Shown here one piece after another: positions 24,080-44,030 of a stretch of 64,000 nt of DNA. The DNA is from Sarea resinae. Lineage: Eukaryota. Under the pieces are notes generated by a model, which worked only from the letters and a program-made list of their open reading frames with translations, ran no database searches and was not told the DNA's origin. Numbering within the stretch: position 1 is the first letter of the stretch; every line of letters starts with the position of its first letter. The translations under genes were made by a program, and so were the position numbers. The stretch covers positions 186,001-250,000 of the forward strand of contig JAPEUD010000013.1 in NCBI GenBank assembly GCA_026026165.1, in the 5' to 3' direction.

Positions 24080-25354
24080 CTAAGACTTCTTGTGCATAAC
24101 GGTAGCAGCAGCCTTCGAATACCATTAGTGATATTCCACTTGAGGTGATAGAGGCAGTGATTTGAGACTCAAGACGTGGCAAGGGACATGTCTCATAAAG
24201 CACCTGCTCTGTGGGGCAATGGCTGCGCAATATGGGATGAAGAAAGTAGAGGGTCCTTACTTGATGATTGGGAAAAATAAGAGTATCAGCCAAGATGACA
24301 TTTTCCCTCCTACCCGCCGCGAAAACAATGACCTCGGCGATATCATCAGGTGTAAGAGGTTCACAGCCACTGTAAGTCAAGTGTCAGTCTAAATCATACT
24401 ATCGGGCCAGCTGCAATGAAAGCGTACGCATATACGGCATCAGCCTTGGACTTGTCACCATAGAACCGGACAACAGAGAAATTCTACAATCATCATCTCT
24501 TAGCATCACTTCCAACGATCTTGTATTAGCAATCAAACTCACCGTCTCGACTTGGCCAGGGTCAACCTCAATCACTCTTATCCGGGTGGCAATGAGCTCC
24601 TTTCGTAGCGCATCCGTAAAGCTTCTGACTGCGGCTTTCGTCGCACAATAAATGCTTCCGCCTGGGTATGGTTCCCGCCCAGCGATACTTCCCACGTTTA
24701 TAATGTCCCCCTTTCCACCATCTGCTCGTTTGTTAAAGATGGGTAGGATCGCTTGGGTCATGTTGATGAGGCCGGTGACATTGGTGGAAAACATGGTGTT
24801 CATATCTTCTGGGTCGATATCAGGAGCTTTAGCCACCCCCTTGACCAGGCCACTGTCAGAACACAAACGTTTAGTCATTTTTATTCCAATGGGACGTTAA
24901 GGTGCTTGACTTACGCATTGTTGACAAGAACATCAATCTCTTGAAACTCCGCTGGCAAAGAGCTGACAAATTCCTTGACCTCGTTGAGATCGCTCACATC
25001 CAATTTGACTGGCAGCACCTTCACGCCTTCTCCGACTTCCTTTTTGATCTCTTCCGCAATCTCCTTTAAGACATCAATCCTCCGGGCGGTCAACACGAGC
25101 TTGAGGTTCTTCGGCGACGTCTTCGCAAACTCGATCGCTGTGCTACGCCCAATGCCAGATGAAGCCCCAGTGACCAAAACAGTCTTGCCTTCCAGGCGTT
25201 TTGCCATGGCCGATGCCATTGTTCGAGTGATATCTAAACGGCTAGTAACACGCGCTAGACCAGTGGCAGGAGATTTCGGTGGCAGAGAGGCACTGGAAGT
25301 GGCGAATTTGATAAATTTCCTAGATGTCCGGGATAGGTTTCTGGTGGGTAGCAT
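24080..25354 (-). CDS. Classical SDR, YdfG/YMR226C-like NADP-dependent 3-hydroxy-acid (serine) dehydrogenase, multi-exon; downstream in-frame ATG at 25219
   Basis: TGASSGIG cofactor motif, DVLVNNA|G, IINVGSIAG, YCATK catalytic motif, VIEVDPGQVET, PLTPDDIAEVIVF; last exon AAATVMHKKS*. Confidence 0.92.
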
Positions 25355-27535
25355 ACGGGATTTCAGGAAATGCACTTGAAGCTGAATGGATTTGAAATAT
25401 ACATGGAGAGGTATGATGTTCACCTTCGCCTTGATGAAAGTATGAGTGGTAGCCAAGGCCGATTGCGGGGACTTAAAAGAGCTTCCCCACGTAAGGACCC
25501 CACTTGGCCGAGGCAAGCTGCGCTTATTCAGCCCTTGCGTCAAGGACGGGACTCTATTCGCCATGTGTGGAGTAGCAGAGCCGCCATCCCTCTAGGTACG
25601 TGGAAACCCAATGCAAGATGAGATCAATGTAAAGCTATCTGGAAACTCTCAATCACGAGGCTGAAATTATACTGAGCATCTTTGTGGACAGGGTATCGCA
25701 GGATTGAATAATTCTGGCTCTCTGCAATAGTACAACGAAGGCTTCCTCTTTCCCCCTGCTCTTATGATTACCCTCTTCGTCCTTCTTCTGCAATGCCAAT
25801 TGTCTATACATGACAGCAACATCTCTCTCTAGTCCCGCAAGCAGGTCCAACAAAAATACTTATCCTTGATTTTGATCAATGAGAGCACCCAACGACTACA
25901 TCCGGATTTCTATAATTGTCCCTTACTGACTGATCCTAAAATCACGGAAGAAACGATCAAATTGCAAGCGTTCCTCTCTGGTCAATGTCGTTCTCGGGGC
26001 TTCGTTATGACAACAGCGATGGCTCTTGGGATTCATTGTTGATGCACTAGAGTATGATCTCATCGTCACGACTGTTCTGCTCAATCTGATATCGTCTGAT
26101 ATCGTGCCCTCTAATTGACAGTCTTTAAGAGGTTTTAGATCACGAATGAGGGAAGCAAAAAGCTCAGACACCCTTTTGAGTGGTCTTACGAAATCCCATT
26201 TGGAATTATCTCATTGGCAATTGTGGCCAGTAATGAAAGGGGTTCATAACATTATGTCGGAACTTCGTAACAGTAATATATATGCGGGGCCTCTACTTCA
26301 CTTCTCCATCTAGTCTTCAAATACTGCGATGGGTCATGGCGTATGTAAAGGCGTGCGTATATAGGACAATTGCTATTCACATCATATCGAAACCATCAAG
26401 TGCGATAATCATTCATTACTTTGTAGCAATCATGCGTTTATACCATTACGCCATACAACCTTTCGTTATAATGAGTAGTCTTAAACAGGATTATATGGCC
26501 CTTTGCCATTCACAGATGGTTCGAGCGTTCGAATCCCGTGATAACCCCGGAACGTCAACCATTCAAGTTCAGATACCTGAAGCAATAGTCTCTTCAAGGG
26601 TTGCTAAATATCAACGCTTGATTGAACTATTGTACTGCGAGCGTCTCTGAGGTAAGTTGCGAATGTCGAGCAGCGACTCTATAATAATTCTTTGCACTTT
26701 TTGGAGGAGGATATCTCTACCGGAACGCTGTTCAAGGTCACACTCATCTCGCCGATAGACCTCCTCGACCAATTGAGCAAAACAGCCACACGGATCTCGT
26801 GAACCCGACAAGTCAGATTCTTGTATATCGCGATGTTCTCTTAACCTTTTATATCATCTTTCTATCCGCGCTCTCGCATTGAGGACCAGTAGAGGCGCCG
26901 CCAACATACGTCACGAACCTTGAGGCCATCGACCGCTCTCTATCTATCATGCTCTGTGAAGCGGTTGGGCTTGAAACCGACGGGTTCGTATCTTGGGCAC
27001 ACGACCCTTCTTACTACCTTGATATCTGCCCAGAGCCACCACCCGCAGCAACAGCAATGAAAATAACACAACGGCGCCAATCATTACGCCAGAAGCTTAC
27101 GTACAATATCCTTGTTGAGCTGATGGTGCCTTTCAGACTTCGCTCCGCCTTAGTATGCTCTTCTTTTGCTCTTTAAGCAGGGACCCAGTAGTCTACTTAG
27201 ATTGTTCGAGAATTAGTTAGGAGAAGTCGCCAAGTTTCTTACGGCATCAGGTATAAATGTTGTATAGAGGCTATCATGAAGCGCTTTGCTATCGATCAAG
27301 TTATGGTCTCCTGGTGGCATTGGCAGTCACCACCGTTATGATCCCATGCTTCTATGCTATATATATCTACTTACGGCTTGCATTACTCGATCATCATTTT
27401 CATCTCCAAATCCAGATGCGCGCATATATGGAGTACTTCATACCTTTGGAGTGGACCCTTTCATGTTCACGCATATCCCTTGCCTCAGTATACTCAGACC
27501 TCGCTTGGCGGGTGGTCCGCTGCGCACGGACCACT

Positions 27536-27590
27536 ATTGCCTAAATAGGCAATCCACCAGCCAGAGGTCTGAGGCAATTTCTCTAATTTT
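27536..27590 (+). repeat. Left terminal inverted repeat of the transposon
   Basis: AATCCAC (27551-27557), 8 nt, then GGTCTGAGGCAATTT (27566-27580). This is the reverse complement of the right-end blocks with identical spacing. Confidence 0.8.
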
Positions 27591-27699
27591 CTACGTCAGC
27601 AGCGGCTAATTTGTATAGAGTCAGCGATTATTAGCAAGCATTAATTTCAAACCATAAGATATCTGCAACCACAACGCCTATAGCAGTGATAGCTATATT

Positions 27700-30380
27700 A
27701 TCTAAAAGCTACACTTCTGTTCTATAATTAATTACTATATCTGCTTCTAGGACTGATCCTAACGTGCAGAGGAAGCGCTAGCAGACAACGACTATTTCTG
27801 CACTAATATCTGCGCTAACTACGCTATAGACATCCTCTTCTGCATTGCTAACCCTTATATTAGCGCTGTTAGCATCGAATACTAATTAGTCTCTGCTAGA
27901 AGCGTTAGCAGATAAGGTTATACCTAGCAGAATAAGTGCAGAGGCTAAGCTCTACTACATTATCGCTAAGTTGTAGGAGTAGCAGGTGACGCCTTTAACT
28001 CTTATAACGTTCTAGCTAGAACATATAAAGGATAATCGAAACTTCTGCTAAGCTAAGCAAAGGAAAGACCTTGTTAGATTAGTCCTTAGATTTAATAATA
28101 TCAACGATCTTCTGTTAGAAGCAGACAAAGGCCTAGCTGTAGTAATAGACAGCAGTATTAGCCTTATCTGCAGCGAATTAAACCAGCTACAGAATCGTTG
28201 TCAGCTGTTTAGCTAATACAGTAAAGACTTAGACTTTAAGACACTTGATATAACTCGCTCTGCAAGCAACATCTTAGAGATAGCGCCTATATTGTCACAA
28301 CTAATTAGCAGTGCAGCTGAATCGCAGTATGCAGCGAAACATTAGCAGAGGACCTATTTAGCAGACGCTAGACGACTTGTTATAACAGCATCTATATTCT
28401 GTCTTAGCTACGCTAAATCGTCAATGAATTGCTTTGCCTACCTACTAGGATTATATCTATAAGACTCTAGGTTAACACAGCGTGCGCTAAGCACGCTCTA
28501 TAGCCTAGGTCTAGTAGATAGATATCGCATAATAGACATGCAGAAACAGCGGATATTAGATTAGAGCAAGGAACGTGTCCTCTAAACGCTACTGTCAGCT
28601 AGGGCTAACTAAACAAAGGCAGATATCCGCTCAGCTGCGCAGACGTAGGACTACACTATTGTATATAACAACTTTAAATAGCACGCAAAAACACAGCATT
28701 AAACAGTTAGTTATACTAGAACGCTCTACTTATACACTACTAGAAAACTCCTACACAGACGATGTTTACTAAGCAGAGGACTAACGCAGGACATGTTCTA
28801 CCCTAATGTTTGTGCTAATATAATAACTCTTCTAGAAGCAGACAGAAATCAAGTCGATAAAACGCAGGCGCAGATATTAACGCATTTAGTTGCTAGTGCT
28901 ATTTGCACAGCATGTCTAGACATTGTTGATGCTATATTCGCAGCAGATATTAATGCTTTCCTGCAAATGCCAGCTGTTAACGTTCTTCTGCCCTTGCAAA
29001 CAAAGCATATAACCCTTAGACTAATCACTAAATCTAAGGGCTCTGTAGCAGGCACATATTAGGTGTTAGACAACATCTTTGCTAGCCAACTAGGGAAGGA
29101 TACAGTCGACTTTAAAAACAAGTTAGTGTTAGTATTTAGTGACTAGAAAACAACAGCGCTGATCCGCTCTTATTAGCTTAAGCGATTAGAGGCAGCAGAT
29201 GTATATAATCGACTTAATTAGATATTATCAGTACCTAGCCTCTTTCACTTGCAGATAAACCTGCTAGCATTGATTGTCAGATCGCACTACAGCAGACAGA
29301 GCAGTCTCAACTAATACTTGACGTTATATTCGCATATAAATTACCTTAGTTGTTAGAATATACCCGCGGATAAAGCGCTGTTTCACTACTAGCAAGAGCT
29401 TGTTCAACATAGCTTTTAGGCCAGAATAGTTGCACTATTTATATCACAACTATCTGTTTTATATAGACAATAGAGTAAAGGCTGACTAGATAAGATGCTC
29501 TGCAAAATGACTCCTACAAACTTTCTTGCTTAGGTAGAGAATATCTGCAAAACTGTCTTCTTTGCTGCTAGCTATTAGGAGTTAGCTTAATACAAGAAGG
29601 ATATACATAGTAGAGATAGAGACATAGCAGGTGCTAGTCGAAAGCAGAATCATAAGCAGCAGCATCTCCTGCATAATTCTAAGTATTTTAATCACATCTG
29701 CTTTCTGCACTATATAGAAACATACTTGACCTTAAGGCATGCTATTAAATTCGCTGATATTAGTTTGCTCTGCCGCGCGATTACCTGCAGCTGTCTGTAT
29801 TTCAGCAGAAGTGGTTTGCATAACTATTTGCAAAAGATAATCTGATTTTAGCAGCTGATATTAACGCTAACGTGTGATCTGTGTCTGCAGGAGGCTATAC
29901 TTGCAAATAGTCTTGTCAGCAACCACAACAAACTAGGTGCCTTTATAGAAGTCGATCAGATAAACAAGCTGTTAAATCTAGAATTAAAGACTATCTTGCA
30001 GACTAAGGGCAATTTAACGTTTGATGTGACAGCTTTATTCAAATAGTTAGTGCTGCTGACTAGCTATCTTACTCTGCTCTGTGCTAAGTTTGAGTTTGCA
30101 TTTAGCAAGCAGACAAACACTTCTTATACCGACAAATCCGCTGCTGCAGATATTAGGAGTCTTGCAGATATTATTGCCTAAGACTCTATAATCCGCCGCG
30201 AGGATAGGATGTCTGCATATATAGCTCTAGGATTGTTGCAATTAGGTGTTATGCGACTAGCTTAGAAGGGGCTGCCTACGCTTGCTAGCAGATATATAGA
30301 TCTAGATAAGGAGGGTATTTCTAATATAGACTAACAGATAGTAGAGGCGTTAGTAGGCCTTGATGTGAGTATATCTTAGC
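27700..30380 (+). pseudogene. Academ/DUF6589-type transposase, RIP-mutated (ends approximate)
   Basis: Motifs read through the mutations: IVY(N>D)NF near 28660; VF(S>G)D(*>Q)KT at 29138; VP(S>G)LFHLQ(I>M)NLL at 29231; ILANSLVSN...FIEVDQIN(K>E)LLNLELK near 29900-29990. The last three share one frame and match the GDQxT / GLFH / DxxxExxN pattern. Confidence 0.78.
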
Positions 30381-30558
30381 GGCTTTATTGTGATTTGTAT
30401 AATAGCTGACTTTATTGTAGGCACTAGATACCTAATTAGTATAGCGGACAAACGCACGATTATACTACTTCCTAGTCATATACTAAATCATGATTGCAAT
30501 TTGATTCTATCTACTATTGTGTGCCTAACTAGCCAGCTATTAGCTTAGCCACGTTAGA

Positions 30559-32117
30559 CTAACAGCCTATGCAGCGGATAATGTTTAGGATCTTAAGGAT
30601 GTCACCTGCTATGCACGACTGCCCTGCTCTTAGATCTGTAATGTCTGCTTGTAAATCAGCTATCAAGTCATTGCTAACAGCGGCTACAGCGGCAGAAGGT
30701 CCTGCAGACGCAGAAGAAGGTGCTGTTGCAGCGACAGTATGTCTTGCAGACGCGGACAAAGCGGCTGGCTAATAAGAAGGACGTTAGCAGGGCTAGGTTT
30801 CAGCAAGAGGTGAGTCGCTAGCTGTGTCTTTATCTAGGTCATTATTATTAACAGCTTCCTTAGTCTTCTGTTGCTAAACAATTCGTTAGCTAACCTAGTC
30901 TAATATACATATGCATTAAACATACTTTCTATAGCCTTTTGCCACTGTCTAACGCATTATTCTTGCGCTTTTTACCTTTGTTAAGACGCGAAGAGGTGCA
31001 GACAGCCTTCTTAATATGTCAGCTATAGCAGATATTCACTATAACATACCACTGCTATAGCGGATATAGCAGATAGATATACTAGAGGAGTATTATTATC
31101 ATTTGCATTGATTACACACGGTTTTCCAGCCTAGCGACACCCTGCGCAACTGTCTCCTAGCTTAACTATATGCTTCTTAACTTCTTAGCAGTAGACCTTG
31201 CAAGGGATGCCTTTTTCGACACATTGTTTGCACTTGTAGGTTAGCTCTATGCCCTAGTATAGGTCGTTGAATATCAAATCAGCATAGGCATAGGCTTTCT
31301 AGCGAGTCTCCTTTAGCCTATTCTAAACAGCGTCTAAACACGTCAGCTAGTCTAGTTCGGTTAGACGTGCAATAAACCACTGTTTATTATAAAATCAGCA
31401 TTGCATACAGTTCTCTGCAGCGGCAGATAATTAGGCCGCGGCGGCAGACAGGCTAGCGGCAGACAGGTTAGCGGCAGACAGGTTAGCAGCAGACAGGTTA
31501 GCAGCAGACAGTTAGGCAGCGGCAGACAATTAGGCGATAGCGGCAGACAGCTTATCTTCGAACAATTTCAAAGCTTTAGCATTGTTATTATCCTCTAAGA
31601 CAAACCCTAAAGACTAGTCTAACGCATACTCTGCTATCCCTTTACCTTTGTCCTTTAGCCCTGTATCTGAGTTATCTTTATCTAATGATTTGTCTGCTAA
31701 CCCTTTACCTTTATCCTTTAGTGGCGCTATACCTAATTCACCTTTGTTAGAGGGTTTGTCTGCTGCCGCCCTTTTAGTATATTGTTTAATTTCTGCACGT
31801 GGCAGCAGGCAGATTAGGAAGGGATATTCCGACTAATACTTGATTGCAGGGGCGGCAGACGACTCAGCAGGGGCAGCAGACAAAACAGCAGCAGCAGACA
31901 AGACAGCAGCAGCAGCAGATAAGACAGTAGCAGCAGCAGAGACAGCAGCGGCGGCAGACTCAGCAGCGGCAGCAGACTTAGTCCTAATTAGAAGTCAGTT
32001 ATCATATCTAATATAATAAAGAAAAGTTTGAGATTAGGTTAGTTAAACAGTTAAAACTTACATGACTAATATTAAGGTTTCCTCTCTAATCAGACGAAAG
32101 TCATTAGCAGCTGACAT
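30559..32117 (-). pseudogene. RIP-mutated gene for a low-complexity protein with a Zn2Cys6-like cluster (third gene of the element)
   Basis: ATG at 32117 (MSAANDFRLIREE), a GTAAGT..CTAAC..TAG intron ~32008-32061, Ala/Ser-rich repeats, then CKQC-VEKGIP-C-x17-CAGC-R*AGKP-C at 31232-31116, and a C-terminal amphipathic helix LIADLQADITDLRAGQ. Confidence 0.6.
31441..31515. repeat. 15-bp tandem repeat GCGGCAGACAGGTTA (~5 units) inside the element; related GCRGCAGAC units at ~31850-31980
   Basis: Units start at 31441, 31456, 31471, 31486 and 31501. They differ mainly by G>A or C>T changes. Confidence 0.9.
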
Positions 32118-32436
32118 ACTATAAAGTTGCTAGTAAGAGGTTAGAGTTAGTTAGAAGTGTCAACTTACACTAGCCTTAAAGCACCTTTAGTACTATTCGC
32201 AACGTTCGACAGATATTGCTCTAATACACTGTTCTTAGCGAAGTCATCAGCTATAATAATAGCAAGGATGATATAGATATTAGTTATTAATAATTGACAG
32301 GCTGTAGCAGAGTTATTAAACAAAAGAGGTGCGATATTAACGATGTTAATAAGGTCGATAAGGTGATAAGGTTGATGATATTTGCAGGTCAGCTACACAA
32401 AGAAGTAGTTCTTTATTCGAACAAAGAAATCGCTAG

Positions 32437-34960
32437 TCAACTATTCACTCGATTTATTAGGCGTACTCGTTTGCTAGATGCAGAAGTTGACAGCAGGTAG
32501 AGGTGAGTATTTATATCTACCTTAGCTAGAGGCTGACGTCTCTTATATAATCTATTAGGTGTGTCTAACAGAGTGTCAACTTGTGGTATGTGACGCAGAT
32601 TAATGACAGGTGGCAAATCAGCTGGCTGACTAGATATATTAGATGCAGATAATAAGGACAAGTTAGCTACAGCTAGCATTAAGGCCGCAGGTTGCATAGT
32701 TAAATCCTCTACGCATATACAGGCTAACAACGCACTTAATTCAGACTAGCTAAGATCACTACCAGCCTATTCTGCACATCTTAGCAACGAACCTACATTA
32801 TAAATACTAGTCTTCTAAACGCATATCCGCTGTATAACGTCCTCTAATATTGTACATCCTGCTACAAGGACCTAGGTCATATCCTTGTACTTTGTCTGCG
32901 TCTGCTCTAACATCTACTGCTTGATCTAAACAGCTATATGTTTGTTAGGGTAGCTGGATCGCGGCGTAATACCTGAGTTCAGCGGTCAAAAGTATAGCTT
33001 CCTAGATAAAACTAGCTCTAGGTTGCAGTTCAAACAGCAACGTCTGCGCAGAACAGGTTCCTTAGTGTTTTCGTCTGCTAGCTGCTTATTAAACGCCTGC
33101 ATAAATATTGCCTACAAGCAGCCTTTCTCCTCGTTCGCAAAATTGTATAGCAGAGGAGGAAGCTCTGCTCGCTGTTTGTATACATCTTTATGCTTGACTT
33201 TCACAGGCTAAGGACCTATTTCAGCTGGTACAGCAATATGCAACCCCTCTAGACTTAGCTCTTGCATTATCCGCCGTTCAATATCTGTGTCAGCCGCGTT
33301 GTCATCTAATAATACAACAAAGGAGACAGCAGAATCAACACTTATACTGTCAGAGTCTGCGCTTTTATATGCCTGCTCTTGACTTAATAGACTTAGCTAA
33401 GACAAGGAAGTTGATGTCTGCACAGCAGATATCTGTGTGCTAGATATCTGCGATCTTAACTGCTAGCTATTATCACTACTTGCTTGCCTTGCCCTAGTCT
33501 GCACCCTAGGACCTTTACACTACTTATTGATAAAGAAAATTGCCTCTCCTTTCTGACTAGCACCTTATGCTGCCTGACTAAATCGTTGCTATACTAAGCT
33601 TAGAAGGCGATCACAAAAGATGCTAAGATAAACCACCTGCTTAATATCTGCAACGTCTGCACCCTAGGCAACTGCATCTGAACAGAGCAACACTCTTATT
33701 CTTAACTGCAGCTGTGAAAACTCCGCCTATATCTGCTCTTTGTCTTGCTCTGCAAGGGTAGCGTAGTACACATTAACTGTGTGCATTGCTAACCGCGCTA
33801 AATATCTGTAGTCCCTTAGCTACTAACAGACCTTGTTGCAGGCTTCTGCAAGCTGCTGTTTACTGTTAATAAATATCGCTGTCTTTAGGATCCGCTGCAG
33901 AGTTAGACAGTAACGTCGTTTAGTATAGCTACTATTAGCAGATAGCACAGGCGTCTTAGATTCTATAGCTAGCGCGGCTGATGCAAGAGATTCTAGCCTA
34001 ACCGCGGCAGATGTTCTAATGTTCGCGGATATAGTTAGCTAGGACCTAGCTATATCTGCAGTGTCCTTAGCACAGCCCTTAATAACAAAGTATAGGCAGT
34101 CAAATAACTTCTTATTACCGCGGCAGATATATTCGCAGATAATAGCCAGCTCTAGTCGATCAATTAAGGTGCAGATCAATTTGACATTGTTATTAAAGCA
34201 AGCAAGCTAGTATACCTCTGCAAAGGTGTTGTTATCTAGTGTTGCAGTGCAAGCAAACTAGGGCTTGTTTCCTAGAAATCTGCAGAGGATACTAAGCTTA
34301 GCATAGGAGCTGCAAAAGGAGGACTAGTTTGAAATTAGATAAACCTTATCTAGCACTACAAGCGCTATCCGCTCCTGCAATTGTATGTCTTTCTATATCT
34401 GCTTGAAATTTGTGCTAACTGCAAGCTCTAGCGAGATTAGGATGTGTGTATATTTGCAATTGCAGATATCCTTAAGGAGTTAGTTGTTATTGTTCTAACC
34501 TGTTATATAAACAGGCTTTATACCTGTAAGCTCCTTTATCTGCATAGTCTGCTTATCTCTAATCTTGTTTAGCAGAAGAATAACAACAACAATAGCGTTG
34601 CAGACTAGACACAGAATTGACTGCATAATTATACTCTTGCTAAACGAAGTTTTAGCAACTAGAAAGAGATCTTTCTTAGTGTATATCAGCTAGCAGAGCG
34701 CCTGCAGCTGACCTATCCTTCTGCTATATAGGTATATCGCGCAGATAATCGCATTAATCGCTGCGAGCTGTGCCTGTTTGTCTGCATAGTAGAGCTCTTA
34801 AAGTCTGTCTTGCAGGGCCTATATTTAACGCTCTTTATCTGTAGTAAGGTTGCTATATGCTATTGCTTCTGCTTGCAAACGTTCTTTATCTGCAGAGGGT
34901 AGCTGCAGTAGGCAGACATATTTGCCCTAGTTAGAGCGTCTTCTTTAAGGTATCTAGCAA
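32437..34960 (-). pseudogene. RecQ-like superfamily 2 helicase, RIP-mutated (ends approximate)
   Basis: Motif I DLFLVAKTSF(S>G)KS ~34665-34633; Ia IVVVIL(L>P)LNKI; YTHILIS(L>P)EL; II VVLD(K>E)V(Y>H)LISN(*>W) ~34350, then SF(C>R)SSYAKL; III FACTATLD; IV KTAIFINSK; V RVLLCSDAVALGADVADI ~33700-33650; VI QRF(S>G)(Q>R)AA(*>R)G ~33590-33562. Confidence 0.85.
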
Positions 34961-35289
34961 ATATAAGTGATCTAATAAGGAGACTATAGCTTTTTCTAAC
35001 CTTATATAATTCCCTAAAGTCGTCACAGCTGATATAGTGCAGGCGTTGTTGTGATATTAAGGTGGAAATAATTGTCCTATAGTAAATCTACTGCTTATTA
35101 GTGCAAACAGTTATTTTCACTTTAAGGCATAAGATAATCTAATCAACTGCACCTGTTACAATACAATTAGGACTATTCGATAGCCCTGTTAAAACTGTAT
35201 AGATAATTAGATTTCTATAGCTGCAGCAGATGTGGTTGTAGATATATGCTGATAAACTTATTTGCTATGCAGATGAAAAATCTGGTTTT

Positions 35290-35350
35290 GCCGCAAATTT
35301 TCAGAAAAATTGCCTCAGACCACATTTTCGTGGATTACCCTTTCGGGAAT
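35290..35350 (-). repeat. Right terminal inverted repeat of the transposon
   Basis: AAATTGCCTCAGACC (35307-35321), 8 nt, then GTGGATT (35330-35336). Coincides with the end of the TpA-rich tract. Confidence 0.8.
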
Positions 35351-38300
35351 GCTTAGTCATTCATCCGAACGGGCCGGATGTTAATCCGGATCCACGTGAT
35401 GTGGTCTGAGTCTACTGAGGCAAGCATATCCCTCGGGCTCCAGGACAACAGGGTCCGTACGTCGAGGCGAGCACGGGAAAGCACGATGTGCAGTTTCCGG
35501 GTCCGGCATCCGCGCTGTTTGGAGGGATGGATCCATCTTAGCAAATCCATGGGTTGCAGACTGCAGTGTGGTACATGAACGTATTGGACCTTTTTGAATA
35601 GATACATAAGGGTACGTGGAGACTAGAGTCTAGCGGGCCCTTTTGACCGGGTCTTAGTGTTCAGGGAGGCGATAATAGGGTACAGTGGTTCAGCGAGGGA
35701 GTAATTGCCATTTGCGTGGGACCGGATGAACCTCATGCACGACTGAATGCCTGCGGTGCATTGGCGCTGGCTCTGGCGCCGATGCTGGATCATGGATCCA
35801 TTGGCAAAAGGATGGATATGTGATGACCTCGGTGCCGAATATCTGAACCCTGGGCTCGGGCACGGACCTTGGACAGGGTGAGGACGGCAAGCTGCGCGCT
35901 CGGGAATAATGCGAGTCATCGCTGATCAGTCATTACCGGATTGATACTCGATACTGTAAGGTTCTTTCGGCGAGCTGAACTTCCAAATTTGAATTCATTT
36001 AGGAGGGAAGGTCTCATTGCAAGACTATCACTTGATTCGTATTCGGCAGATGCGAATTCTGGTCAAAGGGTTAGCCAATAATAAAGAAGCTGTCAAGGGC
36101 TCAAGAGATCACGATCTACCAAAGCTTGAACCTCTTAAACAGCTGATTCACCATTAAGGTAGAGTGAGTATCTCAGTGGATAATAATGCCTGTGACTCGG
36201 GTTGTCATCACCACAGCGGTTGCCATTGTCTCCAATCATTAGGCCAATGTCCTTCGTGGAGGCTCGTAAGTACTAAGTAAATAGTTTCTTGGTCCCAGGT
36301 AGGTAGATACAAGTAATATAGCCGGATCCTAACAGAAGTCCTTACGACCGATCCCCAGTAGACCCGTTTTACCTTCAGTGGGTAATTGAAGGTAGTGTTC
36401 ATGGACTCTTGGCCCCTTATCACGAGATTCAAGCCAGGATGAGACGGTGTTTCCTTACAACCAGTATTGTAGACCTCGGTCCGTAAAGATAAAGCAGCGG
36501 TGATTTGAAATCAGTACTGAAGTTCATAGGTATAAATTGAAACACATCATCAGTTCTTCGCGAGGCTCAGGACTGTCCAGACAGATACTCTTGGACCGAG
36601 AATTCATGTCGAGAGGGCCCGCATCTGGGGCAACGTAATGAACCGTAGATAAAGTGCGTGTGCAGGTGCACTATCGACAAAAAAGATTCTCTGACAGCAG
36701 TCCATCCAACTCATCCCTCCCTCTTTTCCTTTTTGACGCATCTCCATTCTCACTTCTGCATAATCGCTGGCAGGCTATGACTAATTTGGACACTGGTATA
36801 CTAGATCGTGAAAATGGGAAGTCAATCAGTAGCAAACAGAGAATAGATGCGTTGTTAAAATCTTGGTCAATAATGTCATAAACCCACCCGATGCGTTCGA
36901 ATTTGCTGTGTAAGACTCATGGCCAGATATATCGGTAGTGCATAGTGCCTCCTTTGTGGGGTTTCGACCGATGTCAAATGATTTCTGTTTGAGATTATCT
37001 GGGAAGCTTGCCAAAAGTAGGCATAATCATCCTCAATGGCGCAGTGAAGGACTTCGATGTGATCTGCAGAGTTGTTTTCTATGTCCATCATATTTCAATT
37101 CTCAGACGCTGGCGTCGCCTTTGACGAGCACCAGACTAGGAATCCGGTCCTCTGAATCTATTGCTATCAGCCCAGTCTCCAGGATGTGTACAATCCCTGG
37201 AACTTGTATTCAAAACCTTGTCCTGTAGGTTGGTAGTAATTATGGTGCTTAGCAAAATCACTCTCAAGTGCAGAAGGAAAGCGCTTCCATGCTGTAAAGT
37301 TCGAAAGATGTGGACTTATTTGGATTTCCCTTGCCCTGGCCTTTTTCCGTTCCATAAAGAAAAAATCAACGGTGTTCCGTTCGGATTGCACCACGGGCTT
37401 ATTCAATTCGATTGCTCGCGCTTGAGCAGCGGCTTGTCTAGGATCGAGTGCGTTCCTCGTGGGTTTTTTCAGTGTTTTCACGATAGTATCTTCTCTAGGT
37501 CCATCTCAGTGTACGGATTACCTAGTCGGTCAGCTTAACGCCCTTCATGGTCCGAAGACATACTCCTTAGCCCCAAGGACCAACGTAGATACTGAAGCTG
37601 CGTTTGATAGTCTTATAGGTCCTTCGGCTTGGAAGGCACATCCTGTAATCAAGAAGGACGAGTAAAAAAAAGGAGAGGTTGAATGGTGATAAAATAAATA
37701 GCGAATAGGGCAATCAAGAAACAGCGTATTAGCTACTGAAGTACCTACCTTAGGTTTCGCATCAAACTCAAAATCTTATCTTATCTTGTCGGTCTTTGAT
37801 ACAACAGAACCTGCAAGGGCCACCCCTTGGGTGTTCAAGGGCAACCTGCCTACTCCGGAGTATTCGAGTACCTAGGTACCTGGGTACATATTCTAGGCAG
37901 TGAAGCCCGAATGGATTTCTCATGGCTCGCGAATATTCTGTAAATTTTGCACAAAGAGACTTCTTAGTACTACCTAACACTACTAGAGAAGGTGGTATTT
38001 CAGGCAGCCATCTCCTTGAAAACGGATTCCCATCGGCGCTTGCTCCATGCAATTTCAGATAGATTGAAATATGGCACAGTTTAGACATGGGAAACACTGC
38101 CCAGCGGATGCCCAACCTAAACCCCATCATTATTATCCGTAATCTCGGAAACGAAAAGACGCTTTCTCTCCAAGAAGCTGGAAGGACCGATGAACGACGT
38201 GGCACAGAAGCTTGCCCCAAGCCCGGCTTACCTACCTAAGTAGTACCTAAGACACTCACCTATCGCCGTTAGTCCAGTGCAAGGGCGTCGCCCACCCTGC

Positions 38301-39494
38301 CCACCCCCAAATAAAATAACGACGACGCGCCCACTTCCATTGTAGATACCGAGGTTCGGTTGCAGTTACCTACAGTGATCATCATCTAACAAGGACCGAC
38401 CTGACGACCTGGAGATGCTGCTTCCATGCCCCATGTTGGGCTGACGCTGGACCAATATAGCGAAAAGTGAGAGAGCGGAGCTCAATAGCAGTAGTGAGAG
38501 TAGTGGATCCAGCCCGCGCGTTCGTTCGCTGCATGGGATGGCACAGCAGCGCATGGCCCGCCGTCCCGAAAATTGGGGATTTTCCCATCTTTATCCAAGA
38601 AAAGAGAAAAGAGACCCCAAAGTCAATCCGTAGGCGAGATGTGTCCCGTCGGTGGATAAGCGGAGATACCGTACATACGATACCGTACATGGTATGTCCG
38701 CATGGTTTCCAGAGCACGTATGGTTGGATCCATGTCTCGGCAACAACCGACCCTCGAGCCTGCTGTGCGCACGCAGGCATCCATTTTGGCTATCGAATCG
38801 TATCGTCGGACAGACCTGACTACCTACCCCATTCTATCCTTGCGCGGCCGCCCGACTGACGATCATAGTCAATTTGGCGTCGACTGCAATCGGTGATGAC
38901 TATTTTGCCACATCTGTTCCGTGTTCGAGTGCGCTGATACTTGGTCCGTGCAGGGGGATCTACGAAACGGCACGGCAGTTGTGCGCGGCAAAACAAGATC
39001 TGCAATAGATCGTTGAAAGCATCGAGAGACTAGAAAGTGCTCATTGAAGCGATACGACACCGGTGACGCATGATCATTATAGCCAATTCCGAGCGCTTAT
39101 CTGATACACTGATTGAGGTCATGCAAAGTAAGATGGAGCATCAGATGAATGTTATCGTCAATCTTTCGGAATTGCAAGTGGCAAGTAATCGCCAAACGAA
39201 GTCAAATCAGTGAAAAGAGATGGTGCACAACTAGCAACAAAGAAGAATCGTTGTCGGCCGCGATACAAGACGCTCGCTGCTCAGCTCTTTGTAGAATTGA
39301 AGATGAACGGAAAATCGATACAAGGCAAGAAAATCATTAGGTCCGTCACTCGCAAGGAGACGTCAACATTGGATCGTGACCACATTGTGGCAGGCATTTG
39401 TCTCTTGTGCGCACGCTCAAGAAACCTCTGAAACGTGATTGGCGTGATCAAATGCTTGATCAGCGAGATAGGAATCATAACGAACAGGATTGAG

Positions 39495-40787: not shown

Positions 40788-43556
40788 ATTCGGTGGCGAT
40801 TTTTCGTGAACTGATCACGGATAGTGTCGAAGCCAGACGTATTTTCGAAAGCCAGTCCGATTCCTATTGTGAAGGAGGTGGGAGCAAGATTTGAATCTTT
40901 ACGAGCCTGGGTAGGTCGCGATAGCCGAGTCGACGAAATAGATATGAACGGGCTAGATTATTGTACTCGCCCTCGATGGCGATTTGTTTAGTCTATCGCA
41001 GGACCGATCTGAGGAATCCAGAAGTCGAATGGAAGAATGAAGAAGTTGAATAGATATTATTGCGTATCGGAACGTCGAGGTTTGGACGAAGCGGGAGCTT
41101 GCAGCTTTCGGCCGCTAAAGCTAGTATGCTAAGGTAGGTCGTACGGAACGACTTTAGGAAGATTAGACGTCCGCAAAAGGCAAGACGAGCCTAGTTGCGC
41201 GCGTTTTATAGCGACCCAGGCCTCGTAATGATGTTGCGCACGATCTGGTTCAGACGCTCTGCTGTCTGACAACGCACAGCAACGGTACCAAGAGGAGGGA
41301 AAGCAGGAACCAGAGCGAGCAGAGGAGATGGAGGAGGAAGGAGTAGAAGAATACCTTGGCTACCTATCTAGCTACCTATGTGTCTAGGTATGTTCGGTAG
41401 GCAGGTTGACGATTACCAAAAAGCAGGAGATAGATACAGTAGTAGTCCCAGTAGTCCTTACCGTATGTTCAGTAGACCCGCCGGACGGAGAAGGAACAAG
41501 AAAGGGCTCGTTCATTATTCGTTCGCGCGCTCGTTCGCTTGTTCGTTCGTTTATTGATGGGTAGCAGTCCGTACTACTACGTACTCGGTCCACAGCGCAT
41601 ATCCATGAATGTACCTCGTAGTATGATCGTTGGTTGGCCCCGGGCACGCACCCAAGGAGCTGCCTGCCCATCGCAGTCCGAGATGCTGGAAGACGCTGGA
41701 CGAAGAGGGGAATGATACGCCTGTGGTCCCTTGCCAGGAAGAACGACGAAGAACCATCTGTACCCGTATCTGCACGCGGGCAACGTGGTGACAAAGGGAC
41801 CTTCTTCCCACGTACCGATGCTCTACCGTCCCCAGTCGGCCCCGGTCGGGTAGTGGCTCCGCACCCTGAAGATACGCCATCCATGGATCAATGGATAGCC
41901 CTCGTCTGCGAGGAGCCCAGGTATCGGTACGCAGCCGACCCTGAAGACCTCTATGAAGTAATAAGGACCTCTCGGGCCTCTACTCGCGCCGTCCCAAGAT
42001 GCCGCCCACCCCCTGGTAGACTCCCTAGCTGATACCGATGGCAGCCATCGGTCACCGATTGCAATCACCAAGACTTCACCTTTACCCTATTGGCTTTCAT
42101 TGCTTGTTGAAACCGTACAGGCCATGTACGTAGAGTAGTATCCATGTTTTCAATAGCTACCTAATTGTAGTTGCGTGGAAGTACCTCCCTGCTTGCAGGC
42201 CAAGGAGAGAGCATGAATATCACAGCTGCAGCCAGTGGAGGTATAACGTGATACGCAAAAAGGGAGTACTCCGTATGGCGAGTCCTAGGCTTCTGAACCG
42301 CGCGAGTACTCGTGCATAGTAACTAAGGTACCTTAGGTAGTGCTGTGCGACTAGCCGGAGACTACCTTACATACTCGCACTCTCCTGCCTGTCCTGTTGA
42401 ACCTCCCCGACTTTTCGGGTGTCTGTCCTCTAGCAGAAGGGAGACGAGACTTAGCTTCCACATTGACGTTTTCTCTAGGTAAGTTATGGCAGTTCCTCCT
42501 AGTCATTTCACCTCCACCGCCGCATCCCCCCTCCCGTCTACCTCGACCACAGTACAGAGTAGTGCATCTTCCTCCGGTACCCAATCACCCTACCCGCTGT
42601 CAGACTCGCATAATTGGGCTTGCCGCAGCCTAATGCAAATGGCCTCAGTCCGCGGGTCCAGCCCTTCTGGCTGGATCGGTTTGGCTCGCGCAGAGCATAG
42701 GGGCAGCCCAAGCAGAAGAAATCTTGAAGCGCTACTAGAGTAGCAATCCACCATTGCTACCTACATAAGGTAGTACTCCGGGTAGATGCTGTTGGTGCTG
42801 ATTTGACCCCGCAGCACCCAGGATCAGAGATGCGCCAAGTTCAAGTAGAGCACTAAAGAGCGAGACCGATAACGAGACCGTCTGAGATTGAAACCAAAAT
42901 CGATGCTGAATGACACGATACGATCGCGAAAGAACTGAGAAAGCATATTGGACGCAAGCTCTCTTAACAGAGACCGATGAATTGGAGGAGCGCATATTCG
43001 CCGCATACCACTATCAATACATAGTACTGTCAACTTAGGTGACATCTGTACCTCCTAGCTACCTAAGCTCCATATTGCTAGCAAAAAATGGGAAGTAGAT
43101 ACCTTGGCTGATAACCTTTGCTGCCTTGAAATCTAAATACCAGTGGGGACCTTCTCCGAGTACAGACACTACGGACTAATGCTCTACCTTCCCATCGATG
43201 ACTTTTCTTTCAAGAACATCATTTTCTTGCTACGTATATTGATTTTGCTACGGTAGGTAAGTAGGTACTCGTGCTATCTTTTGGTTCACCTCCTAATCAA
43301 CTTTCTTCGTTCACATCCAATATTATCTCGACTCTGTCGTTAACCTACCTATTTTTACAGGTAAGTACTATTAAGCGTAAAAGGCGCGAGTTTCTGGGCG
43401 ATCTCGATAATAATTTATATGATACATAATGCCAGACTCTCCTCCTCTTCTAGCTATTATGTAGTTGTAACATTGCGAAGATGTTAAGCTGCCAAGGTAT
43501 CTTAAAGGTCATAGAGCTTGATTTAATATACCATTAACAAGAGCTTATTTAAGTAT

Positions 43557-43639
43557 GGCCTGCTGGCTCAATGGTAGAGTGCTTGACTACGACCGCCTAG
43601 TCAATCAAGTGGTTGCAGGTTCGAGCCCTGCGTAGGTCA
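43557..43639 (+). tRNA. tRNA-Arg(ACG) with an 11-nt intron (43593-43603)
   Basis: GGCCTGC acceptor stem, TGGCTCAATGG A-box, CTTGA-CT-ACG-A anticodon arm, GGTTCGAGCC B-box, followed by an oligo-T Pol III terminator. Confidence 0.95.
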
Positions 43640-43947
43640 TTTTTATTTTTTGGGAGCTATATGACTTTAATTGCTTCAGCCTGGAATTTTTTTCACATCA
43701 ATTTTCAGCATATGGTTTTAGTAAAACTTTAGCGATACAAAACAAAAGCTTGTAGCTTTATTAATGTACTTCGTAAGAAGCTGCTTCCTTTCTTTTATAT
43801 CGCTGTCTTAAGTGGATGCAAGTGATAATATCCTGTAGGGTACGTAGTAATTGTACAAAAATAAGATTCTTACAAAACCCTAAGAATTAGGTACTGAAGT
43901 GTACTGAAGTACTTTAAGGATCTTAACAGTTAAGACGCAAAAACAAT

Positions 43948-44030
43948 TGACCTACGCAGGGCTCGAACCTGCAACCACTTGATTGACTAGGCGGTCGTAG
44001 TCAAGCACTCTACCATTGAGCCAGCAGGCC
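43948..44030 (-). tRNA. tRNA-Arg(ACG) with intron, identical second copy in inverted orientation
   Basis: Exact reverse complement of 43557-43639; followed on the minus strand by TTGTTTTT. Confidence 0.95.

What the first reader, a model, noticed from the sequence alone, without database searches (positions are those of the whole stretch)
27535..35351. Hidden, apparently full-length helicase-encoding (AcademH-like) DNA transposon destroyed by RIP
Seen: a 7.8 kb stop-riddled TpA-rich block bounded by inverted termini. Reverting transitions recovers a GDQxT/GLFH/DxxxE transposase on + and RecQ-type helicase motifs I-VI on -, arranged convergently. Established: AcademH is the Academ lineage pairing a transposase with a RecQ-like helicase, known from fungi and animals and poorly characterised. 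Inference: this is a complete, reconstructable AcademH-type family in a Pezizomycotina genome, missed by ORF-based annotation. RIP acts on duplicated DNA, so other copies should exist or have existed.
Basis: partly seen in the sequence, partly recalled or inferred. Interest (0 to 1): 0.8.

Follow-up and report, generated by a model that had tools for sequence, protein, structure and literature searches.

The report
Dead helicase-carrying Academ transposon copy
This is one mutated, dead copy of a 7.9-kb jumping gene of an ascomycete fungus that carries its own cutting enzyme and a RecQ-type helicase; it belongs to a rare but already described kind.

Summary
The element spans 27480-35423 (7,944 bp). 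It has 21-bp inverted termini (20/21) and a perfect 9-bp target-site duplication, GCATATCCC.

The + strand carries one stop-riddled frame that matches Pfam DUF6589 (E 4.6e-43). The - strand carries a stop-riddled RecQ-type SF2 helicase, convergent with it.

Differences from conserved family residues are explained about ten times more often by C>T/G>A than by the reverse (40 v 4; 50 v 5), mostly at CpA and CpG. Contigs of the probable source run break 30 nt inside each terminus. Inside the element they shatter into many variants that differ mostly by transitions, so the genome holds several diverged copies. This fits RIP.

Among 55 related metagenome loci, 19 carry the same helicase downstream on the opposite strand (13 of 17 with at least 8 kb downstream). 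The terminal motif recurs, and four relatives show 9-bp duplications.

A predicted structure has the DDE/RNase H transposase fold. Four catalytic blocks match a published Academ profile in order and spacing. The rival KolobokH fails on target duplication and termini.

Verdict: a RIP-degraded AcademH-type transposon, a new member of a known kind. By-products: DUF6589 is the Academ transposase core, and a third Cys-rich module is conserved.

The parts
27471..27479 (.). Left target-site duplication GCATATCCC
   Evidence: It is identical to 35424-35432 and directly abuts the terminal inverted repeat. It is the only such configuration in the window, with none in 10 resamples.
27480..27500 (+). Left terminal inverted repeat TTGCCTCAGTATACTCAGACC
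   Evidence: It matches the reverse complement of 35403-35423 at 20/21. The same motif, TT[GA]CCTCAG-N3-5-CTCAG[AG]CC, lies about 1.1 kb upstream of the transposase match in relatives. A flank contig of run X1 ends at 27508, about 30 nt inside the repeat.
27566..27577 (-). Subterminal inverted copy of the terminal core (GGTCTGAGGCAA), a possible second transposase-binding site
   Evidence: It was read. Its mirror lies at 35310-35321. It is part of the degenerate terminal similarity of about 260 bp. The binding role is inferred.
27737..30283 (+). Transposase pseudogene (Academ-type DDE, Pfam DUF6589), one frame, 34 in-frame stops
   Evidence: tblastn of relatives P0016, L002 ORFs, L009 ORF and P0038 covers 27737-30283 in a single frame. 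The DUF6589 domain maps to about 28862-30112 (residues 441-857 of the frame from 27542). phmmer gave 544 relatives at E<=1e-3. The first catalytic D is now N and the E is now K; the second D is kept.
31116..31232 (-). Cys-rich CX2CX6C...CX2CX6C module (Zn2Cys6-like), degraded
   Evidence: The pattern and about 80 flanking residues are conserved on the same strand and in the same position in L001, L002 (twice), L004, L036, L041 and L050. Zn_clus hits are only sub-threshold, E 0.012-0.04 in 4 of 4 relatives tested. Whether it is a separate gene or the 3' exon of the helicase gene is not resolved.
31441..31977 (.). Internal tandem repeats (15-nt x5 at 31441-31515; 18-39-nt arrays at 31852-31977)
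   Evidence: Found by Tandem Repeats Finder. The 30300-32900 stretch has no similarity to relatives and no Pfam match.
32818..34851 (-). RecQ-type SF2 helicase pseudogene, 26 in-frame stops, convergent with the transposase
   Evidence: tblastn of P0006 (residues 37-673 of 1022) and of the L002 helicase (37-713 of 1181) covers this span. Helicase_C maps to about 33616-33897. Motif I reads AKTSFSKS, motif II DKVYL and motif VI QRFSQAAX, against AKTSFGKS, DEVHL and QRFGRAAR in relatives. PDB relatives of P0006 are RecQ-family helicases.
35403..35423 (-). Right terminal inverted repeat (reverse complement TTGCCTCAGTAGACTCAGACC)
   Evidence: A flank contig of run X1 starts at 35394, 30 nt inside the repeat.
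35424..35432 (.). Right target-site duplication GCATATCCC

Best explanation
Bases 27480-35423 are one inactivated copy of an Academ-superfamily DNA transposon of the helicase-encoding (AcademH) type. It sits in a gene-rich region of an ascomycete chromosome.

Shown:
- It has 21-bp terminal inverted repeats and a 9-bp target-site duplication.
- It carries a DDE transposase gene (Pfam DUF6589) on the + strand.
- It carries a RecQ-type SF2 helicase gene on the - strand, convergent with the transposase.
- Between the two lies a small conserved Cys-rich module.

Inferred from the DDE fold and from the general mechanism of cut-and-paste transposases:
- An active relative's transposase binds the conserved terminal motif and its subterminal copy.
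- It excises the element and inserts it through cuts staggered by 9 bp, whose repair gives the duplication.
- The role of the helicase in the reaction is not known. My guess is unwinding or remodelling of the ends or of the gapped donor and target.

This copy cannot act. Both genes are full of stops. The first catalytic D, the catalytic E, helicase motif I (Walker A) and the DExH box are all changed.

The damage is directional C:G to T:A mutation, mainly at CpA and CpG. The genome holds several diverged copies. This is what repeat-induced point mutation (RIP) produces.
For: Ends:
- TIR 20/21 and TSD 9/9.
- Unique in the window; absent from 10 resamples.
- Flank contigs of run X1 stop at 27508 and start at 35394.

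Genes:
- DUF6589 at E 4.6e-43; 544 relatives by phmmer.
- Helicase relatives at 28-40% identity carrying DEAD plus Helicase_C.
- RecQ-family best PDB hits.

One mobile unit:
- 19 of 55 related loci have the helicase downstream on the opposite strand. That is 13 of 17 loci with at least 8 kb downstream.
- The pairs come from several samples and from lineages with different spacing (0.7-5.0 kb).
- The terminal motif is conserved.
- 9-bp duplications in relatives: L021 9/9, L016 9/9, L007 8/9, L015 8/9.

Transposase nature:
- AlphaFold model pLDDT 89.3.
- The 31 best structural rows are all DDE transposases or integrases. P element: Z 9.7, rmsd 5.4, 278 aligned. Hermes: Z 8.2, rmsd 7.2, 277 aligned.

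Academ identity (Academ RNase H HMM in the supplement of PMC5751038, parts read):
- f-D-N-w-D, t-n-g, vvltGDQply, wlvpflGfFH and D-e-a-l-E-...-K match the DUF6589 consensus blocks YDNFD, TTG, LVYGDQKT, WxLPxPGLFH and DRxNELLN..LK.
- Second D to E spacing is 263 states against 266 residues.
- Ungapped log-odds are 50 bits over 26 positions, against -18.9 for reversed peptides.
- AcademH makes 9-10-bp TSDs and AcademX 3-4 bp (passage in PMC10045372).

RIP:
- Transposase: 40 of 63 differences from conserved columns are explainable by C>T/G>A only, against 4 by T>C/A>G.
- Helicase: 50 of 105 against 5.
- Contexts over both genes: CpA 50, CpG 29, CpT 13, CpC 4.
- 57 of 60 stops are TAA/TAG.
- 420 of 488 difference places among X1 contigs are transitions, and summed contig depth is 2-10 times the flank value.
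Against: - No Repbase Academ, AcademH or AcademX protein could be compared, and the AcademH paper is not held. The match to the Academ profile rests on five of about nineteen text parts of the HMM that I read, scored by hand. It is not a full HMM search.
- The D1-D2 spacing differs: 188 states against 158 residues.
- The K after the catalytic E is offset by one position.
- Foldseek alone gave no match at E<=0.001; the best was Hermes at E 0.04.
- The classical RIP index (CA+TG)/(AC+GT) is not lowered (1.17 v 1.22).
- No second copy lies in the window and no genome is held. Multi-copy status rests on Logan contigs of one run that may be the source. The tool warns that their summed depth is not a copy number.
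- 4 of 17 loci with long downstream flanks lack a downstream helicase (L017, L020, L027, L040). L021 has lost it by deletion.
- I do not know from any call whether described AcademH elements carry the helicase on the opposite strand.
Confidence: 0.85

Rival explanations
1. It is a KolobokH element: a fungal Kolobok-superfamily transposon that encodes a RecQ helicase.
For: The Background of PMC9587614 says KolobokH encodes a RecQ helicase, has been found only in fungi, and that one Kolobok carries the helicase on the complementary strand. The best structural matches, P element and Hermes, belong to the group that shares the C/DxxH signature with Kolobok. A conserved H follows the second D here.
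Against: Kolobok makes TTAA 4-bp duplications and has 5'-RR...YY-3' termini. Here the duplications are 9 bp and not TTAA in 5 elements, and the termini are 5'-TT...AA-3'. The residue three places before the conserved H is mostly G or A, not C or D (pattern [GAD][LI][WF]H). The catalytic blocks match the Academ profile.
Confidence: 0.03
2. It is a divergent MuDR/Mutator-like element, the other superfamily that I recall as making 9-10-bp duplications, which happens to carry a helicase.
For: The TSD is 9 bp and the terminal similarity is long and degenerate, about 260 bp. The TSD length of MuDR is recalled, not taken from a call.
Against: No MULE or other transposase Pfam family matched at E<=0.01 in ten proteins of relatives: four transposase ORFs from loci, three helicases and three full-length family members. 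Only DUF6589 matched, in five of the seven transposase sequences; the two N-terminal ORFs matched nothing. The blocks DN[WF]D, GDQ, G.FH and DxxxE match the Academ profile.
Confidence: 0.03
3. The decay is not RIP. It is ordinary pseudogene drift or spontaneous deamination of methylated cytosines in a silenced repeat.
For: The (CA+TG)/(AC+GT) index is not lowered. 29 of 96 inferred changes lie at CpG, the classical deamination context. RIP competence of this host was not tested.
Against: The asymmetry is 10:1 for C>T/G>A over the reverse in both genes. CpA is the commonest context (50 of 96). 57 of 60 stops are TAA/TAG. The block ends sharply at the element's ends while flanking genes are intact. 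The host is an ascomycete and the element is repeated in its genome. Related copies in other samples show strong classical RIP indices: TA/AT 1.3-1.6 and (CA+TG)/(AC+GT) 0.4-0.9.
Confidence: 0.1
4. The transposase-like and helicase-like remnants are unrelated neighbours, for example a decayed host RecQ paralogue beside a DUF6589 pseudogene, and not one mobile unit.
For: Within this window alone there is only one copy.
Against: TIRs and a TSD enclose both. The same pair in the same convergent order recurs in 19 related loci. In full-length relatives L016, L007 and L015 both genes lie between the same termini with 9-bp duplications. Contigs of X1 break at exactly these termini.
Confidence: 0.01

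Closest known systems
AcademH lineage of the Academ superfamily (Kojima 2020, Mob DNA 11:15; not held, known here only through citing passages in PMC10045372 and PMC10799480)
   Same: It combines a DDE transposase of Academ type with an SF2 helicase carrying DEAD and Helicase_C domains. The TSD is 9 bp and TIRs are present. It occurs in fungi: citing text names Ascomycota, Basidiomycota and Mucoromycota, and the Atlas clusters of DUF6589 are commonest in Basidiomycota and Mucoromycota.
   Different: Three features could not be compared with the described families: the helicase on the opposite strand (convergent), the specific 21-bp terminal motif, and the Cys-rich third module. This copy is dead and mutated.
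AcademX (classical Academ with XPG nuclease)
   Same: It has the same transposase catalytic blocks as the Academ RNase H profile, which was built before AcademH was named.
   Different: AcademX makes 3-4-bp duplications and encodes a nuclease. Here the duplications are 9 bp, there is a helicase, and no XPG domain matched in any of the six frames read through the element or in L002's spacer.
KolobokH (fungal Kolobok with RecQ helicase; PMC9587614)
   Same: It is a fungal DNA transposon that pairs a DDE transposase with a RecQ-type helicase.
   Different: Kolobok has a TTAA 4-bp TSD and RR..YY termini, against a 9-bp non-TTAA TSD and TT..AA termini here. The catalytic signature also differs.
Helitrons
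   Same: They are eukaryotic transposons that carry their own helicase (passage).
   Different: Helitrons use a Rep/PIF1-type protein (Pfam Helitron_like_N and PIF1). That they have no TIRs and no TSD is recalled, not taken from a call. Here there is a DDE transposase, TIRs, a TSD and a RecQ-type SF2 helicase.

Membership tests
Academ superfamily | DDE transposase whose RNase H-like core carries the Academ catalytic blocks | tested here: met
   Blocks DN[WF]D, T.G, GDQ, W..P..G.FH and D...E of the published Academ HMM (supplement of PMC5751038, parts 1, 2, 8, 9, 18 and 19) match the DUF6589 family consensus in the same order. D2-E spacing is 263 v 266. Hand-scored log-odds are 50 bits over 26 positions. 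The model has the DDE fold. Limits: only part of the HMM was read and no full HMM search was possible.
AcademH lineage | Target-site duplication of 9 or 10 bp (passage in PMC10045372) | tested here: met
   Window 9/9, L021 9/9, L016 9/9, L007 8/9, L015 8/9.
AcademH lineage | A helicase encoded within the element beside the transposase | tested here: met
   A RecQ-type SF2 helicase lies between the same termini. It recurs in 19 of 55 related loci.
AcademH lineage | Transposase groups with AcademH rather than AcademX references in a tree | not testable with these tools
   No Repbase sequences are available and the AcademH paper is not held.
Kolobok / KolobokH | TTAA-specific 4-bp TSD and 5'-RR...YY-3' termini (PMC9587614) | tested here: not met
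   The duplications are 9 bp (GCATATCCC, GCGTGTTAA, TATATACAC) and the termini are 5'-TT...AA-3'.
Kolobok / hAT / P / MuDR / Dada group | [quoted passage not shown] | tested here: inconclusive
   A conserved H lies 35 residues after the second D, but the residue three before it is G, A or D ([GAD][LI][WF]H). The Academ HMM has G.FH at the same place.
RecQ helicase family | SF2 core with the DExH box followed by WG..FR..Y, and best similarity to RecQ-family proteins | tested here: met
   Relatives read DEVHL..WG..FR..Y and the window reads DKVYLISN-XSSFCSSY. The best PDB hits of P0006 are WRN, RecQ, BLM, RECQ5, RECQ1 and RECQ4, which fill the top 37 of 45 rows. RecQ_Zn_bind is only sub-threshold: E 2.2e-4, 22.4 bits against a cut-off of 25.
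RIP-affected repeat | Directional C:G>T:A transitions with dinucleotide bias, confined to repeated DNA | tested here: met
   40 v 4 and 50 v 5; CpA then CpG contexts. Boundaries are sharp. The element is repeated in run X1, with 420 of 488 difference places being transitions. One classical index, (CA+TG)/(AC+GT), is not shifted.
Fungal Zn(2)-Cys(6) binuclear cluster (for the third module) | Pfam Zn_clus match above threshold; CX2CX6CX5-12CX2CX6-8C spacing | tested here: inconclusive
   Zn_clus scores 14.5-16.1 bits against a cut-off of 21 in 4 of 4 relatives. The third gap is 14-17 residues.

The most novel reading that the evidence does not exclude
This family would be a distinct, so far undescribed fungal branch of helicase-carrying Academ elements. 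Its marks are a helicase on the opposite strand, a strongly conserved 21-bp terminal motif (TTRCCTCAG-N3-5-CTCAGRCC) with a subterminal inverted copy, and a third conserved Zn-cluster-like module. It would also show that the widespread 'unknown function' family DUF6589 is the Academ DDE transposase core. Hundreds of fungal 'DUF6589 proteins', which one preprint proposes as possible virulence factors, would then be transposase genes.
Probability: 0.35. Interest if true: 0.45.

Novelty: new member of a known kind. Interest (0 to 1): 0.3.

Why it matters
For this genome it is a repeat-annotation point. The 7.9-kb block is a dead transposon, not genes, and it shows that RIP-like mutation acts in this host at CpA and CpG.

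More generally, the work ties Pfam DUF6589 to the Academ transposase by fold, catalytic blocks, termini and duplications. In the searchable literature the term DUF6589 occurs in one preprint only (search). There it is listed among domains that 'may represent novel virulence factors' (passage). Reading such genes as transposases would avoid that mis-annotation.

It also gives exact ends, a terminal consensus and intact reference copies (L009, L002) for a poorly characterised class of transposon that carries its own RecQ-type helicase. These are the materials needed to test what the helicase does in transposition.

Tried and rejected
- Whole genome of the window: none is held. A copy census and a de-RIPed consensus were therefore not possible.
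- The AcademH paper is not held, either by DOI or by PMC id.
- The search 'Academ' + 'XPG' returned only 'academic' hits. PMC12730594 does not mention Academ. PMC12210899 and PMC9970103 only cite the paper.
- The word-based search for proteins of 1870-5000 aa related to the transposase found nothing. That is weak evidence against giant fusions. No hit longer than 1062 aa was among the best 150 phmmer hits.
It was repeated with 6 closer sequences.
- The element has no nucleotide-level relatives among the 55 loci, apart from one 186-bp stretch at 69%. Copy-to-copy RIP analysis with those loci was therefore impossible.
- The central 30300-32900 stretch gave no Pfam family and no tblastx similarity to loci. 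L002's 5-kb spacer gave no Pfam family at E<=0.01.
- Sequence search of a full-length family member against the PDB gave nothing meaningful; the best E was 0.24.
- L012 and L009 could not be used for TSDs because the contigs end 2-8 nt outside the left terminus. In L012 the 8 available flank bases do not match the right flank.
- L024's flanks at the left motif copy checked (595) do not match; the other copy (538) was not checked.
- Earlier notes of this scan: none for this genome, and none on Academ or DUF6589.
- Run X2 (another organism) holds only short low-depth contigs 80-95% alike inside the element, plus one identical 151-nt piece of the left flank. No contig joins across the element, so no empty site was seen.

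Full report
**Observation**

The region stands out from its surroundings. Over 27480-35423, GC is 0.405 and TA/AT is 1.39. The rest of the window has GC 0.494 and TA/AT 0.73. Its 55 flank 1-kb bins have mean TA/AT 0.74, sd 0.18 and max 1.36. No ORF of 100 aa or more lies inside; the longest is 97 aa.

Read with X at stops, the + frame from 27542 matches Pfam DUF6589 at E 4.6e-43 over almost the whole profile. The - frame from 35349 matches Helicase_C just at threshold (E 6.7e-5).

**True ends**

Further out lies a 21-bp inverted repeat, 27480-27500 against 35403-35423, matching at 20/21. It is directly flanked by the identical 9-mer GCATATCCC at 27471-27479 and 35424-35432. The element is therefore 27480-35423, 7,944 bp.

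I scanned the window for inverted 21-mers (at most 1 mismatch, 2-15 kb apart) with at least 8/9 flanking direct repeats. Only this pair was found, and ten first-order Markov resamples gave none.

Independent support comes from Logan contigs of run X1, which may be the source of this DNA. The single-copy flank contigs (depth about 360) end at 27508 and begin at 35394, about 30 nt inside each terminus. That is what a repeat boundary does to a k-mer assembly.

**Genes**

- Transposase. Relatives of the + strand protein map to 27737-30283 in one frame. A full scan of 1.84 billion representatives gave 544 relatives at E<=1e-3. The best had 35% identity. Full-length members run about 830-1060 aa, and none of the best 150 is fused to a helicase.
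- Helicase. The - strand protein maps to 34851-32818 against intact relatives of 935-1181 aa that carry DEAD plus Helicase_C. The closest solved structures of relative P0006 are WRN, RecQ, BLM, RECQ5, RECQ1 and RECQ4, which fill the top 37 of 45 rows. The DExH box is followed by the RecQ-like WG..FR..Y.
- Damage. In this copy motif I reads AKTSFSKS, motif II DKVYL and motif VI QRFSQAAX. The transposase's first catalytic D is N and its E is K. There are 34 and 26 in-frame stops, and 57 of the 60 are TAA/TAG.
- Unrecognised part. The last third of the helicase, relative to P0006, is not recognisable.

**One mobile unit**

A scan of metagenome contigs with an alignment of six relatives gave 55 loci.

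- Helicase relatives lie in 20 of them, always on the strand opposite the transposase. In 19 the helicase is downstream, so the pair is convergent. In L017 it lies upstream.
- Of 17 loci with at least 8 kb downstream, 13 have the downstream helicase. L017, L020, L027 and L040 do not.
- The pairs come from several samples and from lineages with different spacing: 0.7-2.1 kb in L001, L009, L012, L028, L037 and L044, and 4.5-5.0 kb in a large multi-copy family.
- The terminal motif TT[GA]CCTCAG-N3-5-CTCAG[AG]CC lies about 1.1 kb upstream of the transposase match in about 20 loci. In L009, L012 and L021 it also lies in inverted orientation at the other end.
- 9-bp duplications flank relatives: L021 GCGTGTTAA 9/9; L016 TATATACAC 9/9; L007 8/9; L015 8/9. 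The two mismatches are C/T.
- L016, L007 and L015 are full-length elements of about 11.2 kb, with both genes between these ends.
- L021 is a deletion derivative without the helicase and with a 5.9-kb nested insertion.
- L009 (6.4 kb) and L002 carry open reading frames for both genes.

**What the transposase is**

An AlphaFold model of relative P0012, built with 85 aligned sequences, has mean pLDDT 89.3.

Foldseek gave only weak rows, the best being Hermes at E 0.04. The exhaustive structural comparison placed DDE transposases and retroviral integrases in all 31 top rows. The P element transposase scored Z 9.7 (rmsd 5.4, 278 aligned) and Hermes Z 8.2 (rmsd 7.2, 277 aligned). The matches span model residues 1-480, which means an RNase H-like core split by a large helical insertion.

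The supplement of Muszewska et al. 2017 (PMC5751038) holds an HMM of the Academ RNase H-like domain. It was built from the Yuan and Wessler alignment plus Repbase sequences (text passage). I read parts 1, 2, 8, 9, 18 and 19 of that file.

| Academ HMM states | HMM consensus | DUF6589 family consensus |
|---|---|---|
| 2-6 | f-D-N-w-D | YDNFD |
| 24-26 | t-n-g | TTG |
| 186-195 | v-v-l-t-G-D-Q-p-l-y | LVYGDQKT |
| 214-223 | w-l-v-p-f-l-G-f-F-H | WxLPxPGLFH |
| 450-462 | D-e-a-l-E-q-l-i-v-R-d-l-K | DRxNELLN..LK |

The spacing from the second D to the E is 263 states against 266 residues. Ungapped emission log-odds for 26 positions sum to 50 bits, against -18.9 for the reversed peptides.

Differences remain. 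D1-D2 spacing is 188 against 158, and the lysine after the E is offset by one. This is a partial, hand-made comparison, not a full HMM search. Even so, it identifies DUF6589 as the Academ catalytic core.

**Lineage**

A passage in PMC10045372 states that AcademH makes 9- or 10-bp duplications and AcademX 3- or 4-bp ones. PMC10799480 states that AcademH and KolobokH contribute DEAD/Helicase_C helicases, and that AcademH occurs at low copy number in Basidiomycota, Ascomycota and Mucoromycota. The Atlas clusters of DUF6589 are commonest in Basidiomycota and Mucoromycota.

The serious rival is KolobokH, which is fungal and carries a RecQ helicase. It fails because Kolobok makes TTAA 4-bp duplications and has RR..YY termini.

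The element therefore fits AcademH on every feature I could test. A tree with AcademH and AcademX references could not be made. Neither the AcademH paper nor Repbase sequences were available.

**RIP**

For columns where relatives agree (at least 60%), I asked which single class of base change could turn a codon of the consensus residue into the window's codon.

| Gene | Conserved columns | Columns that differ | Explained by C>T/G>A only | Explained by T>C/A>G only |
|---|---|---|---|---|
| Transposase | 174 | 63 | 40 | 4 |
| Helicase | 232 | 105 | 50 | 5 |

The contexts of the inferred changes are CpA 50, CpG 29, CpT 13 and CpC 4. Mutation at CpG creates new CpA/TpG. This explains why (CA+TG)/(AC+GT) is not lowered (1.17 against 1.22).

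No second copy lies in the window. In run X1, however, 716 contig pieces lie on the stretch laid (24500-38500), nearly all of them inside the element: 342 at 99% or more, 177 at 95-99%, 97 at 90-95% and 100 below 90%. Summed depth inside the element is 2-10 times that of the flanks. Of the 488 difference places, 420 are transitions.

The tool warns that summed contig depth is not a copy number and that X1 may be the source. So this shows repetition, not a count. A second organism (X2) holds short related pieces. No empty site was seen.

Most related metagenome copies show strong classical RIP indices and have no ORF of 120 aa or more. The host is an ascomycete. The flanking genes (adaptin, Nuf2, a short-chain dehydrogenase, Kei1) are ordinary and intact.

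**Mechanism**

- Shown: the ends, the duplication, the two genes, their conservation as a unit, and the DDE fold.
- Inferred: the transposase binds the terminal motif and its subterminal inverted copy (27566-27577 / 35310-35321). It excises the element and integrates it through cuts staggered by 9 bp.
- Unknown: what the RecQ-type helicase does. I guess that it unwinds or remodels the ends or the gapped intermediates. The citing passage also links the TSD difference between AcademH and AcademX to their different accessory enzymes.
- This copy is inert.

**Extra finding**

Between the two genes, on the helicase strand, lies a conserved segment of about 80 residues with the pattern CX2CX6C...CX2CX6C (window 31232-31116). 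It recurs in L001, L002 (twice), L004, L036, L041 and L050. Pfam Zn_clus is only sub-threshold (E 0.012-0.04 in 4 of 4). The compact L009/L012 lineage shows no such pattern. Whether it is a separate gene or a helicase exon is open.

**Novelty**

This is a new, dead member of a described kind, so overall interest is modest. Three things may be new:
- the explicit link of DUF6589 to Academ. Search of the library for 'DUF6589' found one preprint, which lists it as a possible virulence factor;
- the terminal consensus;
- the third module.

The supplements and text of the AcademH paper, which I could not see, may already cover the last two.

Noticed in passing
window 43550-44037: A pair of 99-bp inverted repeats (43550-43648 and 43939-44037, 95% identical) encloses about 290 bp in an AT-rich stretch (GC 0.39, TA/AT 1.36). 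It looks like a miniature inverted-repeat element or a foldback.
   Followed up: no
window 26170-26440: In run X1 the flank contigs break at 26313 and 26440. Summed depth is about three times the flank value, with several small joints. This suggests a short repeated segment just upstream of the transposon.
   Followed up: no
window 31116-31232 (-); L002 6173-6280 and 4216-4323; L001 2946-3056; L004 10571-10678; L036, L041, L050: A conserved Cys-rich CX2CX6C...CX2CX6C module of about 80 residues lies between the transposase and the helicase on the helicase strand. Similarity to Zn_clus and DUF3716 is sub-threshold. It is duplicated in L002. L001 and L036 share an in-frame stop at the same position.
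   Followed up: partly
L021 2818-8727: A 5.9-kb insertion interrupts the transposase gene of an internally deleted family member, which still has perfect termini and a 9-bp duplication. The inserted sequence was not examined.
   Followed up: no
L013 6892-8255 and 18859-19383; L019 228 and 3071: Copies of the related family lie head to head or close together in the same contigs. This gives long spurious inverted repeats and suggests clustering of copies in that genome.
   Followed up: no
L003-L030 (contigs of two related metagenome samples): More than 20 copies of an 11-kb sister family are almost all stop-riddled with strong RIP-type indices (TA/AT 1.3-1.6). The 4.5-5-kb spacer between their two genes has no Pfam match in the intact copy L002.
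   Followed up: partly
window 46931-48598 (+): A 555-aa ORF combines collagen triple-helix repeats with a DUF7908 domain. This is unusual for a fungal gene.
   Followed up: no
window 27480-35423: The heptamer-like word GCAGA(C/T)A recurs very often through the element, both in its tandem arrays (31441-31549, 31852-31977) and elsewhere. It was not tested against chance.
   Followed up: no
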